DNA of 64,000 bases from Burkholderiales bacterium (lineage in GTDB: Bacteria; Pseudomonadota; Gammaproteobacteria; Burkholderiales; SG8-39): positions 18,756-82,755 of the forward strand of contig JBFJOO010000006.1 in NCBI GenBank assembly GCA_041617635.1. The letters are read 5' to 3'. How positions within the stretch are numbered: the stretch's first letter is position 1; each line of letters begins with the position of its first letter. The position numbers and the translations under genes were made by a program. Shown one piece after another: positions 28,792 through 32,038 of this stretch. Under the pieces are notes generated by a model. The model worked only from the letters and a program-made list of their open reading frames with translations, had not been told where the DNA came from and ran no database searches.

Positions 28792-29508
28792 ATGTCACGA
28801 CTTCTCTTCCGCGATGACGCATATCTGCGCGCTTGTGAGACACGGGTCACGGGCGTCGACGCACGCGGCATCCGCCTCGAGGCGACCGTGTTCTATGCGA
28901 ATTCCGGCGGACAGCCGGGCGATACCGGCACGCTCCGGCTCGAGAACGGAACGGAGGTCCGTGTCATCGACACGGTCAAGGGGAATGGACCCGACGAAGT
29001 GGTCCACGTTCCGGCGCCCGACAGCCCGCCAGTGTCGGTGGGAATGGGCGTGCAAGCCGAGATCGACTGGCAGCGGCGGTATCGGCACATGCGCCTGCAT
29101 ACCTGCATGCATCTCCTGTGCGCCGCGGTCCCGTACGCGGTCACGGGTGGACAGATCGCGGCCGACAAAGCGCGACTCGATTTCGACACGCAGGGCAATC
29201 CGCTGGACCGGGACGCCGTGGCGACGCGCTTGAACGAGCTCATTGCGCAGGGCGCGCCGGTTGGGGCGCGTTGGATCACCGAGTCGGAACTCGCGGAGAG
29301 CCCGCAACTCGTGCGCACGATGTCGGTCAAGCCGCCGACCGGACAAGGTCGCGTGAGACTGCTCGAAGTGAGCGGCATCGATCTGCAGCCCTGCGGGGGC
29401 ACGCACGTCGGCAACACCGCGGAGATCGGCCGGGTCGTCGTGCTCAAGATCGAGAACAAGGGGCGGCAGAACCGGCGCGTAGTCGTCGGGTTCGCCGGCG
29501 AGGAGTGA
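28792..29508 (+). CDS. alaX: AlaX alanyl-tRNA editing protein
   Basis: FYANSGGQPGD, HMRLHTCMH and PCGGTHV zinc/editing motifs. Confidence 0.93.
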   Translation: MSRLLFRDDAYLRACETRVTGVDARGIRLEATVFYANSGGQPGDTGTLRLENGTEVRVIDTVKGNGPDEVVHVPAPDSPPVSVGMGVQAEIDWQRRYRHMRLHTCMHLLCAAVPYAVTGGQIAADKARLDFDTQGNPLDRDAVATRLNELIAQGAPVGARWITESELAESPQLVRTMSVKPPTGQGRVRLLEVSGIDLQPCGGTHVGNTAEIGRVVVLKIENKGRQNRRVVVGFAGEE

Positions 29509-30083
29509 GGCGCGAGACGCGCGCGGGTGTAACCGAGGCTGCTCCCGGTCGGGCAACGATCCGCGCGAGCGTGCTCGCGGACGTGCCCGCGATCACCACG
29601 ATCTACGCGCACCACGTTCTCAACGGGCTTGCTTCGTTCGAGACCGTCGCGCCGGACGAAGCGGAGATCGCGCGCCGCCGTGATGCGATACTCGCCCGCG
29701 GCCTGCCTTACCAGGTGGCCTTGCTCGATGGCAACATCGCCGGCTACGCCTACGCCGGACCATACCGGGCGCGTGCTGCCTATCGCTACACGCTGGAGGA
29801 CTCGGTGTATGTCGATCCATCAGCGGCCCGGCGCGGCATCGGGCGCGCGCTCCTCGAGTCGCTGCTCGCGACTTGCGCGACGCTCGGCTATCGGCAAATG
29901 ATCGCGGTGATCGGTGATAGCCAAAACACGGCATCGATCACGCTGCACGAGGCATGCGGCTTCACGCGCGCCGGGTTATTGCGGAGCGTGGGTTACAAGC
30001 ATCGGCGTTGGGTGGACAGCGTGCTCATGCAACGCTCGCTGGGAGCTAGGGACACCGCCGCACTGGAGCAAGGCGAGACGTGA
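29505..30083 (+). CDS. GNAT N-acetyltransferase, phosphinothricin/YncA family
   Basis: ASFE, YAYAGPYR, EDSVYV, LHEACGF and GYKHRRWVD. GTGA overlap with alaX; start uncertain. Confidence 0.9.
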   Translation: MRRETRAGVTEAAPGRATIRASVLADVPAITTIYAHHVLNGLASFETVAPDEAEIARRRDAILARGLPYQVALLDGNIAGYAYAGPYRARAAYRYTLEDSVYVDPSAARRGIGRALLESLLATCATLGYRQMIAVIGDSQNTASITLHEACGFTRAGLLRSVGYKHRRWVDSVLMQRSLGARDTAALEQGET

Positions 30084-30204
30084 ACGCGTCATACGATCCG
30101 CGCCCGCGACACGCGCAACTTGCGCGGCAAGCGGCAAGATGCTATCGAGAAGGTGGCGCTCAGCCAAACGTCGTCAACGGGGCACCTATCAGAGGAGGCA
30201 GCAC

Positions 30205-30618
30205 ATGGCCGACACCATACGCAAGACCGACTACTTCGCGATTCAGGTTCCGAACCGCCCGGGTTCCGGCGCGCGCGTCCTCGCCGGGCTCAAGGCGGAG
30301 GGCGTCAACCTGATTGCATTCACGGCGTTTCCGAACGGGAAGACGGCGCAAGTCGACCTGGTTCCAGAGCGCACCGCGACGCTTCGCCGCGCGGCGAAAA
30401 AGCTCAACCTTCGCCTGGGCAAGCGCAAGACGTGCTTCATCATTCGCGGTGACGATCGGGTGGGCGCGCTCGCGAACACGTTGCAGCGATTGGCGGCCGC
30501 GCGTATCAACGTCAGGGCGCTCGATGCGGTCATCGCCGGCAAGGGCCGGTACGGAGCAGTGTTCTGGGTCAACCCGAAGAGCGTGGCGCGGACGTCGCGG
30601 CTGCTCCGAGCTCGATAA
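30205..30618 (+). CDS. Tandem ACT domain protein
   Basis: Two ACT-like repeats (VPNRPGSGARV; GDDRVGALA). GAGGAGG RBS. Confidence 0.8.
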   Translation: MADTIRKTDYFAIQVPNRPGSGARVLAGLKAEGVNLIAFTAFPNGKTAQVDLVPERTATLRRAAKKLNLRLGKRKTCFIIRGDDRVGALANTLQRLAAARINVRALDAVIAGKGRYGAVFWVNPKSVARTSRLLRAR

Positions 30619-30629
30619 AGCCTGCGGGC

Positions 30630-30676
30630 AAAAAAATCCTCGAGGCGGCTGAGGAGGAGGGTGCGCCGCCCCGAGG
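30630..30676 (-). terminator. Intrinsic terminator, minus strand
   Basis: 12-bp stem CCTCGGGGCGGC/GCCGCCTCGAGG followed by A-T7 on the minus strand. There is no T-run on the plus side. Confidence 0.8.
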
Positions 30677-30780
30677 GTCCACAGGAGAGAATGAAACTGC
30701 CGGAGTGCGCTGCCTGCATTGCGCGAGACATCGCACCCAAGCATCGAGGGGCCCGCCTTGCGGCGCGCCCCGCGACTGAT
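30630..30780 (-). ncRNA. Candidate trans-acting small RNA (~150 nt)
   Basis: Promoter upstream, four predicted hairpins (two with GCAA loops, two with CU-rich loops), a terminal stem plus U7, and no start-to-stop ORF inside. Confidence 0.65.
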
Positions 30781-30784
30781 TCCA

Positions 30785-30814
30785 AGCTTAGAGACTGTCT
30801 AATTATCTGTCCAA
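30785..30814 (-). promoter_or_regulatory. Sigma70-type promoter, minus strand
   Basis: TTGGAC-18 nt-TAAGCT in an AT-rich patch. Confidence 0.65.
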
Positions 30815-30850
30815 TCGATCCGGGCAATCAGGATAATCATCCTGGTTGAT
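30814..30850 (-). promoter_or_regulatory. Paired LysR (NodD/MexT/NahR-type) binding boxes
   Basis: Minus strand reads ATC-N9-GAT-N7-ATT-N9-GAT, ending exactly at the -35 hexamer. Confidence 0.7.
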
Positions 30851-30999
30851 ATCTGCGGCCCCACGCCCCGGAAAACATCCCAGGGCGTTTGGAATTCGCG
30901 CCATGGGCGCTCAGGGTGGCCGAGCGACGTCGCCCGACCCGACGTTTCGCGGGTACGACATTGATCGGCGTGATCGAACCGAGCTAGAGTATTGCCCGT

Positions 31000-31977
31000 A
31001 TGGATATTCGCGACGTTGATCTGAACCTGCTGGTGGCGCTGGATGCACTGCTCGCCGAGCGTAGCGTCACCCGCGCGGCGCAGCGGTTGAGCCTGAGCCA
31101 ACCGGCGATGTCCGCGGCTCTGGCACGGCTGCGCATCCTGTTCACCGATCCGTTGCTGCTGCGAACCGCGCGCGGAATGCTCCCCACGGCCAAGGGCGTC
31201 GAGCTCGCGGCGCCAGTCAAGCAGGTGCTCGACGAGATTGGACGGATCGTCCGGCAGGCCGAGGCGTTCGATCCGGCGCGCGCGGAAGTGACGTTCACCA
31301 TCACGGCGTCCGACTACGTGGAGTTCACCATCCTGCCGCGCCTCGTGGACCACGTCGAAGCCCGTGCACCCGGCTGCCGGCTGGCCGTTCGGCCGATCAA
31401 CTTTGCGTCCCTGCCGGAGCAGCTCGAGCGGGGCGAAGTCGACCTCGCGCTGGTGAGCGCCACCAACGCGCCGGAGAACGCACGGCTGCGGCCGCTCTAC
31501 CCCGAGCGTTTCGTCTGTGCCGTCCGGCGCGGCCATCCGCGCGCGGCGAAGCAGATCACGCTGGACGAGTTCTGCGCGCTCGAGCACGTGCTCATCTCAC
31601 CGAGTGGCGGTGCCTTCGTCGCGCAGACCGACGCCGCCCTAGCCGCGCTCGGCCGCAGCCGCAGCGTGCGGCTCTCGGTCCCGCACTTTCTCCTCATTCC
31701 CGAGATTCTCGCGCGGTCCGACATGATGGCCGTATTGCCGGAGCGCCTCGCGCGCGCCCATGCCGACCGACTGCACGTCATGGAGATCCCCTTCGAGTTG
31801 CCGCCTTACACGATCGCGCAGGTGTGGCACGAGCGGACGCATCGCGATCCCGCGCGCGCGTGGCTGCGCCAGGCGCTCGCGGAGCTCATGGAGAAGGAGG
31901 GCGCGCCGATGCCGCGGATTCCGCGTCAGCAAAAGCGCACCCGCCGGGGCGACCGCCGCGCGACCCAGGCGGTCTGA
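31000..31977 (+). CDS. LysR family transcriptional regulator (NodD/NahR/MexT-like subfamily)
   Basis: DLNLLVALDALLAERSVTRAAQRLSLSQPAMSAAL HTH, ASDY and WHERTHRDP...WLR. Confidence 0.96.
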   Translation: MDIRDVDLNLLVALDALLAERSVTRAAQRLSLSQPAMSAALARLRILFTDPLLLRTARGMLPTAKGVELAAPVKQVLDEIGRIVRQAEAFDPARAEVTFTITASDYVEFTILPRLVDHVEARAPGCRLAVRPINFASLPEQLERGEVDLALVSATNAPENARLRPLYPERFVCAVRRGHPRAAKQITLDEFCALEHVLISPSGGAFVAQTDAALAALGRSRSVRLSVPHFLLIPEILARSDMMAVLPERLARAHADRLHVMEIPFELPPYTIAQVWHERTHRDPARAWLRQALAELMEKEGAPMPRIPRQQKRTRRGDRRATQAV

Positions 31978-32038
31978 CCGGTCGGACGGCGGCGTCTTCG
32001 GGGGCGAACGGTCGCGCTCGCCCTGCAGCGCGGCGCAA

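What the first reader, a model, noticed from the sequence alone, without database searches (positions are those of the whole stretch)
30650..30700. Two exposed anti-Shine-Dalgarno seed loops in the candidate sRNA
Seen in sequence: one loop region (minus strand UUUCAUUCUCUCCUG) is the exact reverse complement of CAGGAGAGAAUGAAA, a complete RBS plus AUG-AAA initiation region. The 15-nt terminator loop GCACCCUCCUCCUCA is complementary to UGAGGAGGAGGGUGC. Established: CU-rich anti-SD loops are the seed regions of multi-target repressing sRNAs such as alphaproteobacterial AbcR1/2. Inference: the RNA blocks translation initiation of several mRNAs using two independent seeds.
Basis: partly seen in the sequence, partly recalled or inferred. 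Interest (0 to 1): 0.65.

Follow-up and report, generated by a model that had tools for sequence, protein, structure and literature searches.

The report
LysR-linked small RNA with anti-ribosome-site seeds
The two C/U-rich stretches are real and are the most conserved part of a roughly 150-nt small RNA gene that always sits next to one LysR regulator in uncultured soil Burkholderiales, so it is most likely a new family of a well-known kind of RNA that covers ribosome-binding sites.

Summary
UUUCAUUCUCUCCUG lies at 30696-30682. The 15-nt loop GCACCCUCCUCCUCA (30664-30650) sits in a 12-bp hairpin followed by U7.

They form the 3' domain of a single-copy RNA gene of about 150 nt (~30779-30629). 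It has a conserved TTGGAC-N18-TAGACT-type promoter overlapped by ATC-N9-GAT LysR boxes. An orthologous LysR gene (60-95% identity) lies divergent to it in every locus that has enough flank.

The loop core CCUCCUC and the linker core CUC(U)CCUGUGG are kept across 12 genera, while the 5' domain drifts freely. The helix covaries. The loop is predicted to be fully unpaired, and the linker partly unpaired.

No Rfam family matches. The genome carries its own RF02278 copy at another locus.

Target scans were not discriminating. Real seeds hit start regions no more often than flank-shuffled seeds did, and no long complementary sites exist.

Verdict: a real RNA gene, probably an LTTR-driven anti-Shine-Dalgarno repressor. 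It is a new member of a known kind and of moderate interest.

The parts
30805..30850 (-). LysR-type (LTTR) operator region. It has three boxes: ATC-N9-GAT (30850-30836), ATT-N9-GAT (30828-30814) and ATC-N9-GAT (30819-30805). The last box overlaps the -35 element.
   Evidence: Coordinates were checked. The same ATTATC-N-GAT ... ATCGA-TTGGAC-NGATA layout is present in 26 loci from 12 genera.
30809..30814 (-). -35 element, TTGGAC.
   Evidence: It is invariant or nearly so (TTGGAC, TTAGAC or TTGTAC) in all loci, with an 18-nt spacer. The generic sigma-70 scan did not call it, because its -10 rule was not met.
30785..30790 (-). -10 element, TAAGCT. Homologues have TAGACT, TAAACT, TACACT or TATAGT.
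   Evidence: The position is conserved. The transcription start (~30781-30777) is inferred, not measured.
30629..30779 (-). Predicted primary small RNA, about 150 nt.
   Evidence: It is bounded by the conserved promoter and the intrinsic terminator. It is single copy in the genome. The fold z-score is -3.6, although that test sequence included a few post-terminator bases. No complete ORF lies inside it on either strand, and 1-nt indels between close relatives break any frame.
30697..30779 (-). Variable 5' domain, with two predicted stem-loops in this species.
   Evidence: It cannot be aligned between species of the same genus. The consensus fold of the four closest relatives has a covariation term of only -0.12 kcal/mol.
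30679..30696 (-). Seed 1 region, UUUCAUUCUCUCCUGUGG. The conserved core CUCUCCUGUGG is 30689-30679.
   Evidence: The core is conserved in 12 genera. The first 18 loci matched it by construction of my search pattern. The CM-found loci L051-L060 show CUCUCCUGUGG, CUCCUCCUGUGG or CUCCUCUGUG(G/A). Mean P(unpaired) is 0.68 here and 0.38-0.76 in homologues.
30638..30676 (-). Terminator hairpin. The 5' arm is CCUCGGGGCGGC (30676-30665), the loop is 30664-30650, and the 3' arm is GCCGCCUCGAGG (30649-30638).
   Evidence: In 15 distinct homologues, 100% of cells are paired and 2 pairs show compensatory changes. In the CM alignment of 35 matches, 98% of cells are paired and 0 of 500 shuffles reach the observed covariation. 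That alignment is fitted to the model and includes 5 non-family rows. The top of the stem shows CGGC/GCCG, CAGC/GCUG, CAAC/GUUG and CAGU/ACUG.
30650..30664 (-). Seed 2, the 15-nt terminator loop GCACCCUCCUCCUCA. The conserved core is CCUCCUC(C).
   Evidence: The core is invariant in 27 distinct family sequences, although it was not part of the search pattern. P(unpaired) is 0.99-1.00 in all 23 folded homologues.
30630..30636 (-). U7 tract of the intrinsic terminator, which is also the expected Hfq-binding 3' end.
   Evidence: A U-run of 5 or more follows the hairpin in all homologues. Hfq is encoded at C44.
31000..31977 (+). Divergent LysR-family regulator. HTH_1 plus LysR_substrate domains, BsrA/DntR/NahR/LeuO-like.
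   Evidence: Pfam. In NCBIfam the best hit is BsrA at 225 bits, below its cut-off of 480. In PDB the best hit is DntR. An orthologue at 60-95% identity is divergent and adjacent in every sRNA locus with enough flank. It is absent from 20 of 22 genomes in which the CM found no RNA, and the other two carry a variant RNA.
30205..30618 (+). Convergent ACT-domain gene of 137 aa. It is a neighbour, not part of the RNA.
   Evidence: Pfam ACT. Homologues align only from residue ~98 of the 29914 ORF, so the true start is 30205. It is syntenic in g1, g39 and g40 and absent in g3, g13, g45, g47 and g48.

Best explanation
The finding is the 3' functional domain of an independently transcribed, non-coding small RNA of about 150 nt on the minus strand (~30779-30629).

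Shown by sequence comparison:
- The gene has a conserved sigma-70-type promoter fused to LysR boxes.
- An orthologous LysR regulator always lies divergent to it.
- It ends in a covarying 12-bp intrinsic terminator.
- It carries two strictly conserved CU-rich stretches: CUCUCCUGUGG in the linker just 5' of the terminator, and CCCUCCUCCUC in the unusually large terminator loop. The 5' two-thirds of the RNA is free to vary.

Inferred:
- The LysR protein, on sensing an unknown ligand, activates transcription of the RNA.
- The RNA is bound by Hfq at its U-tail. It may first be trimmed to a ~65-nt 3' fragment that begins at the A/U-rich patch before seed 1, as happens with Bordetella S17.
- It pairs its CU-rich seeds with purine-rich Shine-Dalgarno regions of several mRNAs and blocks 30S binding. 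Likely targets are high-expression solute-binding-protein and catabolic genes.
- The conserved UGUGG tail of seed 1 is probably structural or used for processing rather than part of the target duplex.
For: - Orientation and gene structure: the A7 run precedes the hairpin on the + strand, so the U7 run follows it on the - strand. The conserved -35/-10 elements and LTTR boxes lie upstream on the - strand in 26 loci of 12 genera.
- Conservation pattern: the 3' ~60 nt are 85-95% identical where the rest of the spacer is unalignable.
- Loop core: it is invariant although it was not in the search pattern.
- Helix: 100% paired with compensatory pairs.
- Copy number and spread: single copy. Found in 41 of 301 genomes and 12 of 34 genera of the GTDB family, one copy each. 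Only two marginal hits turned up in 401 genomes of the order.
- Coupling to the regulator: the LysR orthologue is adjacent in all loci with enough flank. It is missing from 20 of 22 genomes without a CM hit, and the other two have the same promoter plus a CU-loop hairpin.
- Accessibility: seed 2 has P(unpaired) ~1.0 and seed 1 0.4-0.76, against 0.31-0.45 for the rest.
- Cofactors: Hfq is present and no CsrA or ProQ was found.
- Start-region pairing: start regions are 5-7 times richer than intragenic windows in strong duplexes with either seed. The top hits are NMT1-like, DctP and LivK-like binding proteins and FadD.
- Precedents for the mechanism: AbcR1/2 (PMC8844928), NcS27 double-hairpin RNAs (PMC5688073) and Bordetella S17 with loop and single-strand CU sites (PMC11722255).
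Against: - No transcript evidence exists.
- The enrichment of start regions is partly circular, because my start-codon picker favoured SD motifs.
- Real seeds give no more strong hits than flank-shuffled seeds that keep the CU core. For seed 1 the counts at <= -18, -20 and -22 kcal/mol are 218/60/12, against shuffle ranges of 53-301/12-111/1-36. Seed 2 behaves the same way.
- The best CCACAGGAG-containing start region, fadD, keeps that motif only in the two closest genomes.
- In 15 genomes, the only 15-nt near-perfect complements of seed 1 are the RNA genes themselves plus two stray sites. No conserved specific target was therefore identified.
- The generic promoter/terminator scanner called neither element, because the loop exceeds 8 nt and the -10 is non-canonical.
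- In three genera the same promoter drives a small ORF before the CU-loop hairpin, so the RNA could be a remnant of an mRNA.
Confidence: 0.6

Rival explanations
1. A real, conserved RNA, but the CU-rich motifs do something other than occlude ribosome-binding sites. Options include a protein-binding platform, a sponge for G-rich RNAs, or a transcript that is mainly the 3'UTR remnant of a lost small-membrane-protein gene whose hairpin acts in cis on stability or termination.
For: - In g47, g38 and g18 the same LysR-divergent promoter drives a 45-50-aa hydrophobic ORF followed by the CU-loop hairpin.
- The window's 5' domain is unconstrained.
- No specific target signal was found.
- The lower terminator stem CCUCGGGG/CCCCGAGG and the UGUGG motif are conserved in sequence, not just in pairing. 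That is more than a terminator or a seed needs.
Against: - Where the ORF has been lost, the CU motifs remain invariant across 12 genera. This argues for a trans function.
- Exposed CCUCC-type motifs are experimentally established anti-SD seeds in at least three unrelated families.
- No CsrA or ProQ is present to be titrated.
Confidence: 0.2
2. The plus strand is the functional one. CAGGAGAGAAUG would be a true RBS and start of a 52-aa ORF (30691-30849), and the 'anti-SD' motif would simply be its complement.
For: AGGAGAG lies 4 nt before an ATG and opens a 52-codon frame.
Against: - Relatives have no ATG there, or a different peptide of different length.
- 1-nt indels separate the closest relatives.
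- There is no Pfam hit.
- The ORF would run antisense through a conserved promoter.
- Conservation peaks in the hairpin, outside the ORF.
Confidence: 0.03
3. It is a plus-strand element of the convergent ACT-domain gene. This would be a 3'UTR hairpin displaying GGA motifs (a CsrA-type decoy) or a bidirectional terminator.
For: The hairpin starts 20 nt after the ACT stop codon. Its plus-strand loop reads UGAGGAGGAGGGUGC. The ACT gene is syntenic in three genera.
Against: - On the + strand an A-run precedes the hairpin and no U-run follows it.
- The element is kept in g3, g13, g45, g47 and g48, where no ACT gene follows.
- The g39 loci carry a separate terminator for the convergent gene.
- No CsrA homologue is present in the genome.
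Confidence: 0.04

Closest known systems
AbcR1/AbcR2 (alpha-r15) with the LysR-type activator LsrB/VtlR, in Rhizobiales
   Same: - An RNA of about 115-150 nt.
- One anti-SD motif in a hairpin loop and one in a single-stranded linker.
- Transcription from an LTTR-bound promoter next to the regulator gene.
- Targets are mainly mRNAs for periplasmic binding proteins (PMC8844928).
   Different: - No sequence or CM similarity: there is no Rfam hit at E<=10.
- The host is betaproteobacterial.
- The loop seed sits in the terminator hairpin, not in the 5' hairpin.
- The LTTR is BsrA/DntR/NahR-like, not shown to be an LsrB orthologue.
- It is single copy rather than a tandem pair.
Betaproteobacteria 'toxic small RNA' / double-hairpin RNAs (Rfam RF02278: Burkholderia NcS27/BdhR1, Bordetella S17S)
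   Same: - The same bacterial order.
- CU-rich single-stranded 5' site plus CU-rich loop sites that cover ribosome-binding sites.
- Hfq-associated, with a rho-independent terminator.
- S17 also uses a second loop as an auxiliary site and is processed from a longer primary transcript.
   Different: - RF02278 does not match this locus.
- The genome has a separate true RF02278 copy at C15:32176-32237, scoring 55.5 bits.
- RF02278 has two hairpins, with the seed in the first and a small terminator loop. Here a single hairpin serves as both terminator and seed carrier.
- RF02278 genes are not LysR-linked.
CcsR1-4 / 'cuckoo' RNAs (Rfam RF02791, RF02344 ar14/NfeR1), in Alphaproteobacteria
   Same: CCUCCUCC(C) motifs are displayed in hairpin loops, and the terminator-proximal hairpin carries the motif. 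This was the best (weak) Rfam hit for the locus.
   Different: - The score is 19.1 bits against a gathering score of 65.3.
- There is no DUF1127 gene, no tandem array and no RpoH-type promoter.
- The class of bacteria is different.
GcvA-GcvB and OxyR-OxyS divergons (Enterobacteria)
   Same: An LTTR gene and a trans-acting sRNA gene are transcribed divergently from one control region, with the LTTR activating the sRNA.
   Different: The RNAs are unrelated. GcvB uses G/U-rich seeds on C/A-rich sites. Neither family matched in Rfam.

Membership tests
Rfam RF02278 (Betaproteobacteria toxic sRNA / BdhR / S17S) | Covariance-model score at or above the gathering score (50 bits). | tested here: not met
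   The permissive cmscan of 29500-32000 gave no RF02278 hit at E<=10. The only hit above the cut-off in the genome is at C15:32176-32237, scoring 55.5 bits.
Rfam RF02278 (Betaproteobacteria toxic sRNA / BdhR / S17S) | Double-hairpin architecture, with the CU seed in the 5' single strand and first-hairpin loop, followed by a separate small-loop terminator. | tested here: not met
   Here one 12-bp hairpin is both seed carrier and terminator. Compare the genome's own RF02278 copy.
Rfam RF02791 CcsR1 / RF02344 ar14 (cuckoo RNAs) | Covariance-model score at or above the gathering score (65.3 and 58.8 bits). | tested here: not met
   CcsR1 scored 19.1 bits, E 0.16, and ar14 gave no hit at this locus. 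The variant locus L093 reaches only 31.6 bits for ar14.
Rfam RF02791 CcsR1 / RF02344 ar14 (cuckoo RNAs) | Tandem copies downstream of a DUF1127 gene. | tested here: not met
   The RNA is single copy. The flanks are a LysR gene and an ACT-domain gene.
AbcR1/2 (alpha-r15) - LsrB/VtlR circuit | Sequence and structure homology to alpha-r15. | tested here: not met
   No alpha-r15 hit in Rfam 15 at E<=10.
AbcR1/2 (alpha-r15) - LsrB/VtlR circuit | Two anti-SD motifs, one in a loop and one in a single-stranded linker. | tested here: met
   By prediction only. P(unpaired) is ~1.0 for the loop and 0.68 for the linker. Both motifs are conserved.
AbcR1/2 (alpha-r15) - LsrB/VtlR circuit | The activator is an LsrB/VtlR orthologue. 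| not tested
   The regulator is LysR-family and closest to BsrA, LeuO and DntR. It was not compared directly with LsrB.
Trans-acting Hfq-type sRNA gene (generic kind) | Own promoter and rho-independent terminator, and non-coding. | tested here: met
   The promoter is conserved. The terminator covaries and is followed by U7. No conserved or complete ORF is present.
Trans-acting Hfq-type sRNA gene (generic kind) | The transcript is detected, with defined 5' and 3' ends. | not testable with these tools
Trans-acting Hfq-type sRNA gene (generic kind) | Seed-dependent regulation of target mRNAs. | tested here: inconclusive
   The in-silico scans were not discriminating. Experiments are needed.
LTTR-sRNA divergon (GcvA-GcvB / OxyR-OxyS layout) | A divergent LTTR gene sharing the control region, with an LTTR box at the sRNA promoter. 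| tested here: met
   The LysR orthologue is adjacent in all loci with enough flank. ATC-N9-GAT boxes overlap the -35 element and are conserved. Binding and activation were not tested.

The most novel reading that the evidence does not exclude
The RNA may be the dedicated, and perhaps the only direct, output of this LysR regulator. Regulator and RNA are inherited and lost together across at least 14 genera. The RNA may also have been born from the 3'UTR of a small membrane-protein mRNA. Three genera still carry the 45-50-aa ORF between the same promoter and the CU-loop hairpin, while the others lost the ORF but kept, and in most cases extended, the anti-SD module. That would make the family a natural series showing the transition from mRNA to dual-function RNA to pure sRNA. 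A possible CCACAG/CUGUGG pairing might gate seed 1.
Probability: 0.25. Interest if true: 0.55.

Novelty: new member of a known kind. Interest (0 to 1): 0.4.

Why it matters
It adds an uncatalogued RNA family, absent from Rfam 15, to the anti-Shine-Dalgarno class of small RNAs. The family is found in a large, uncultured soil lineage of Burkholderiales. It also gives a second bacterial class in which a LysR-type sensor is hard-wired to such an RNA.

The strict regulator-RNA co-occurrence means that identifying the LysR ligand would directly reveal the signal. The ORF-containing relatives offer a tractable case of how 3'UTR-derived regulators become stand-alone sRNA genes.

The mechanism proposed is conventional, and no specific target or expression evidence exists yet.

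Tried and rejected
1. Rfam at permissive thresholds gave only sub-threshold CcsR1 (19.1 bits) and ErsA (16.3 bits) hits, driven by the CU loop. The relatives L053, L057, L061, L062, L093 and L094 also match nothing.
2. The generic promoter/terminator scanner found nothing. Its rules (loop of 8 nt or less, canonical -10) exclude this design.
3. Genome-wide target scan. I called 4,273 starts with a home-made GC3/SD-based caller and ran RNAduplex with both seeds. Enrichment over intragenic windows was not above flank-shuffled seeds, so the scan says nothing about specificity.
4. GGAGAG-N0-4-ATGAAA has 7 other sites. The 15-mer has no other match at 1 substitution or fewer.
5. Phylogenetic check of the best CCACAGGAG start region (fadD). 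The motif is kept only in G000 and G004. All genomes, with or without the RNA, have strong SDs.
6. A search for 15-nt complements of seed 1 in 15 genomes found only the RNA genes themselves plus two stray sites.
7. Neighbour genes as targets. The LysR start region is not complementary (-6 to -7 kcal/mol). The ACT start region has a conserved GAGGAGG, which is unspecific.
8. Possible CCACAG/CUGUGG pairing enclosing seed 1. It forms a clear 7-bp hairpin in g3 and g45, and a loop-to-linker (pseudoknot-like) match in g39 and g40. It is weak or absent in the window, and there was no valid control, so it is left as an idea.
9. The 5'-domain consensus structure shows negligible covariation.
10. The small ORFs of the variant loci have no Pfam match.

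Full report
**Observation.** The window's 381-nt spacer 30619-30999 lies between an ACT-domain gene and a LysR-family gene.
- The ACT-domain gene is on the + strand. Its stop codon TAA is at 30616-30618, and its true start is 30205.
- The LysR-family gene is on the + strand at 31000-31977.
- The minus strand reads ...GCAGUUUCAUUCUCUCCUGUGGA-CCUCGGGGCGGC-[GCACCCUCCUCCUCA]-GCCGCCUCGAGG-AUUUUUUU.
- The hairpin has 12 bp, including one G-U pair, and is followed by U7. On the + strand an A-run precedes it and no U-run follows, so it terminates minus-strand transcription.

**Is it more than chance?** I folded the sequence upstream of every T5+ run in the 4.58-Mb genome. Only two terminator-like hairpins carry a CU-rich loop of 8 nt or more, and this is one of them. 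Conservation is the stronger argument.
- BLAST of the spacer against 40 relatives matched all six congeners and two other genera. In the more distant ones, only the last ~60 nt matched, at 85-95% identity.
- A pattern scan of GTDB representative genomes returned 18 loci, all from uncultured soil Burkholderiales or Betaproteobacteria MAGs.
- The loop core CCUCCUC was not in that pattern, yet it is invariant.
- A covariance model of the 3' domain (R1) finds exactly one copy in the own genome.
- R1 finds one copy in each of 41 of 301 genomes, covering 12 of 34 genera of the GTDB family. Among 401 genomes of the order it gives only two marginal hits outside the family.
- In the CM alignment, 27 distinct family sequences keep C-UGUG and CCUCGGG, plus UCCUC within the loop core, at 100%. 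The upper stem covaries: CGGC/GCCG, CAGC/GCUG, CAAC/GUUG and CAGU/ACUG.

**What it is.** Upstream on the minus strand, every locus has TTGGAC-N18-TA(G/A)ACT. The window has TTGGAC at 30814-30809 and TAAGCT at 30790-30785.
- An ATC-N9-GAT dyad overlaps the -35 element, and a second ATTATC-N-GAT box lies ~20-30 nt further up.
- The transcript predicted from ~30779 to ~30629 is about 150 nt.
- It has no complete ORF, and 1-nt indels between the closest relatives break any frame on either strand.
- Its 5' two-thirds is unalignable even within the genus and shows no covariation.
- An orthologue of the window's LysR gene (60-95% identity) sits divergently 150-460 nt upstream of seed 1 in every locus that has enough flank.
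- Conversely, 20 of 22 genomes without a CM hit lack that orthologue.
- The two exceptions (genera g38 and g18) have the same promoter, a 45-50-aa hydrophobic ORF and then a hairpin with a CCCUCCUCCUCC-type loop.
- Genus g47 has the ORF and also the full two-seed 3' domain.
- The regulator is BsrA/LeuO/DntR/NahR-like.

The element is therefore an LTTR-coupled RNA gene whose constrained part is the two-seed 3' module.

**Are the seeds exposed?** Partition-function folding of 23 homologues, from the predicted start to the U-tract, gives these values:
- Terminator loop core: P(unpaired) 0.99-1.00 everywhere.
- The 12 nt of seed 1: 0.38-0.76, and 0.68 in the window.
- The rest of the RNA: 0.31-0.45.

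In the window, seed 1 lies in a linker, not a hairpin loop. In g3 and g45, a CCACAGG segment pairs with the conserved CCUGUGG, so the CU stretch is presented as a true loop. In g39 and g40, a CCACAG in the loop of the preceding hairpin could do the same through a pseudoknot. I could not control this statistically.

**The anti-AUG idea.** Only CUCUCCUGUGG is conserved. The preceding UUUCAU is replaced by AUUCAU, UGUUUU, GGCUAU, CCUCCU and others. The plus-strand ORF that would use CAGGAGAGAAUG is not conserved. The 15-mer has no second near-match in the genome.

**Mechanism.** Exposed CCUCC-type motifs are experimentally established anti-SD seeds in several families.
- AbcR1/2 has two independent aSD motifs and LsrB-dependent transcription (PMC8844928).
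- NcS27 and the double-hairpin RNAs are a second case (PMC5688073).
- Bordetella S17 has sites in the 5' single strand and in loops, is processed from a longer form, and is enhanced by Hfq (PMC11722255).

The genome encodes Hfq and no detectable CsrA or ProQ. I therefore favour LysR-activated transcription, Hfq binding, and occlusion of strong Shine-Dalgarno regions by either seed.

My in-silico tests neither confirm nor refute the targeting part.
- Start regions are 5-7 times richer than intragenic windows in strong duplexes. My start picker favours SD motifs, however, and flank-shuffled seeds perform equally well.
- Top hits are NMT1-like, DctP and LivK-like binding proteins, FadD and a CBS protein. 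This is the usual list for any anti-SD probe.
- The CCACAGG part of the fadD site is not conserved beyond the two closest genomes.
- No 15-nt complement of seed 1 exists outside the RNA genes in 15 genomes, apart from two stray sites. The invariant UGUGG is therefore probably not a pairing determinant.

**Comparison with known families.**
- Rfam 15 gives nothing above threshold: CcsR1 scores 19.1 bits against 65.3.
- RF02278 has its own bona fide copy elsewhere in this genome, with a different architecture.
- The layout matches AbcR-LsrB and GcvB-GcvA in logic but not in sequence.

The RNA is best described as a new family within a known kind.

**Limits.** Transcript ends, LysR dependence, Hfq binding and all targets are inferences.

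Noticed in passing
L057 and L058 (genus g47), L093 (g38), L094 (g18): between the LysR-divergent promoter and the CU-loop hairpin: A conserved 45-50-aa hydrophobic small ORF occupies the position of the window RNA's variable 5' domain. An example is MRKELWVSSAGYAAVAALAELAAWMLGENLPGVASLAPGSLLKVL, and L058 has a GGAAGGAGG SD. It has no Pfam match. This suggests that the RNA family derives from, or alternates with, an mRNA 3'UTR.
   Followed up: partly
Own genome C15:32176-32237 (-) (L030): A bona fide RF02278 (toxic sRNA / NcS27 / S17S) gene scoring 55.5 bits: AACUCCUCCACCCUCCUCCUUUGGUGGAUUCUGCGCAGCCACACCGGCUGCGC-U9. The organism therefore has at least two different anti-SD sRNA families.
   Followed up: partly
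Own genome C47, around + 25271 (minus strand), and C17, around + 32652 (minus strand): Two further CU-loop hairpins. In C47, GGGGGCGCGCGG[CCCUCCUCCUC]CCGCGCGCCCUC plus a T-run lies directly after a ~90-aa secreted-protein gene, a 3'UTR position. In C17, GGUCCGCG[CCCUCCUCCUC]CGCGGACC is followed by a separate terminator.
   Followed up: no
L061 (G632, family f34) and L062 (G638, family f45): Other Burkholderiales families carry RNAs of the same design: a single-stranded CUCCUCCCCU stretch, then UGUGGA or UGGGGA, then a terminator with a CUCCUCCCCCUU loop. L062 has two tandem copies. They have no adjacent LysR orthologue and no Rfam match.
   Followed up: partly
window 29914-30618: The 234-aa ORF is an overcall. 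Homologues and SD position place the ACT-domain gene start at 30205 (137 aa). 29118-30083 is a GNAT acetyltransferase.
   Followed up: yes
window 30679-30685 and the homologues' upstream hairpin loops: The invariant CCUGUGG after seed 1 often has a CCACAG(G) partner 5-23 nt upstream. This forms a hairpin in g3 and g45 and a loop-to-linker match in g39 and g40. It may be a switch or pseudoknot that gates seed 1, and it is not statistically controlled.
   Followed up: partly
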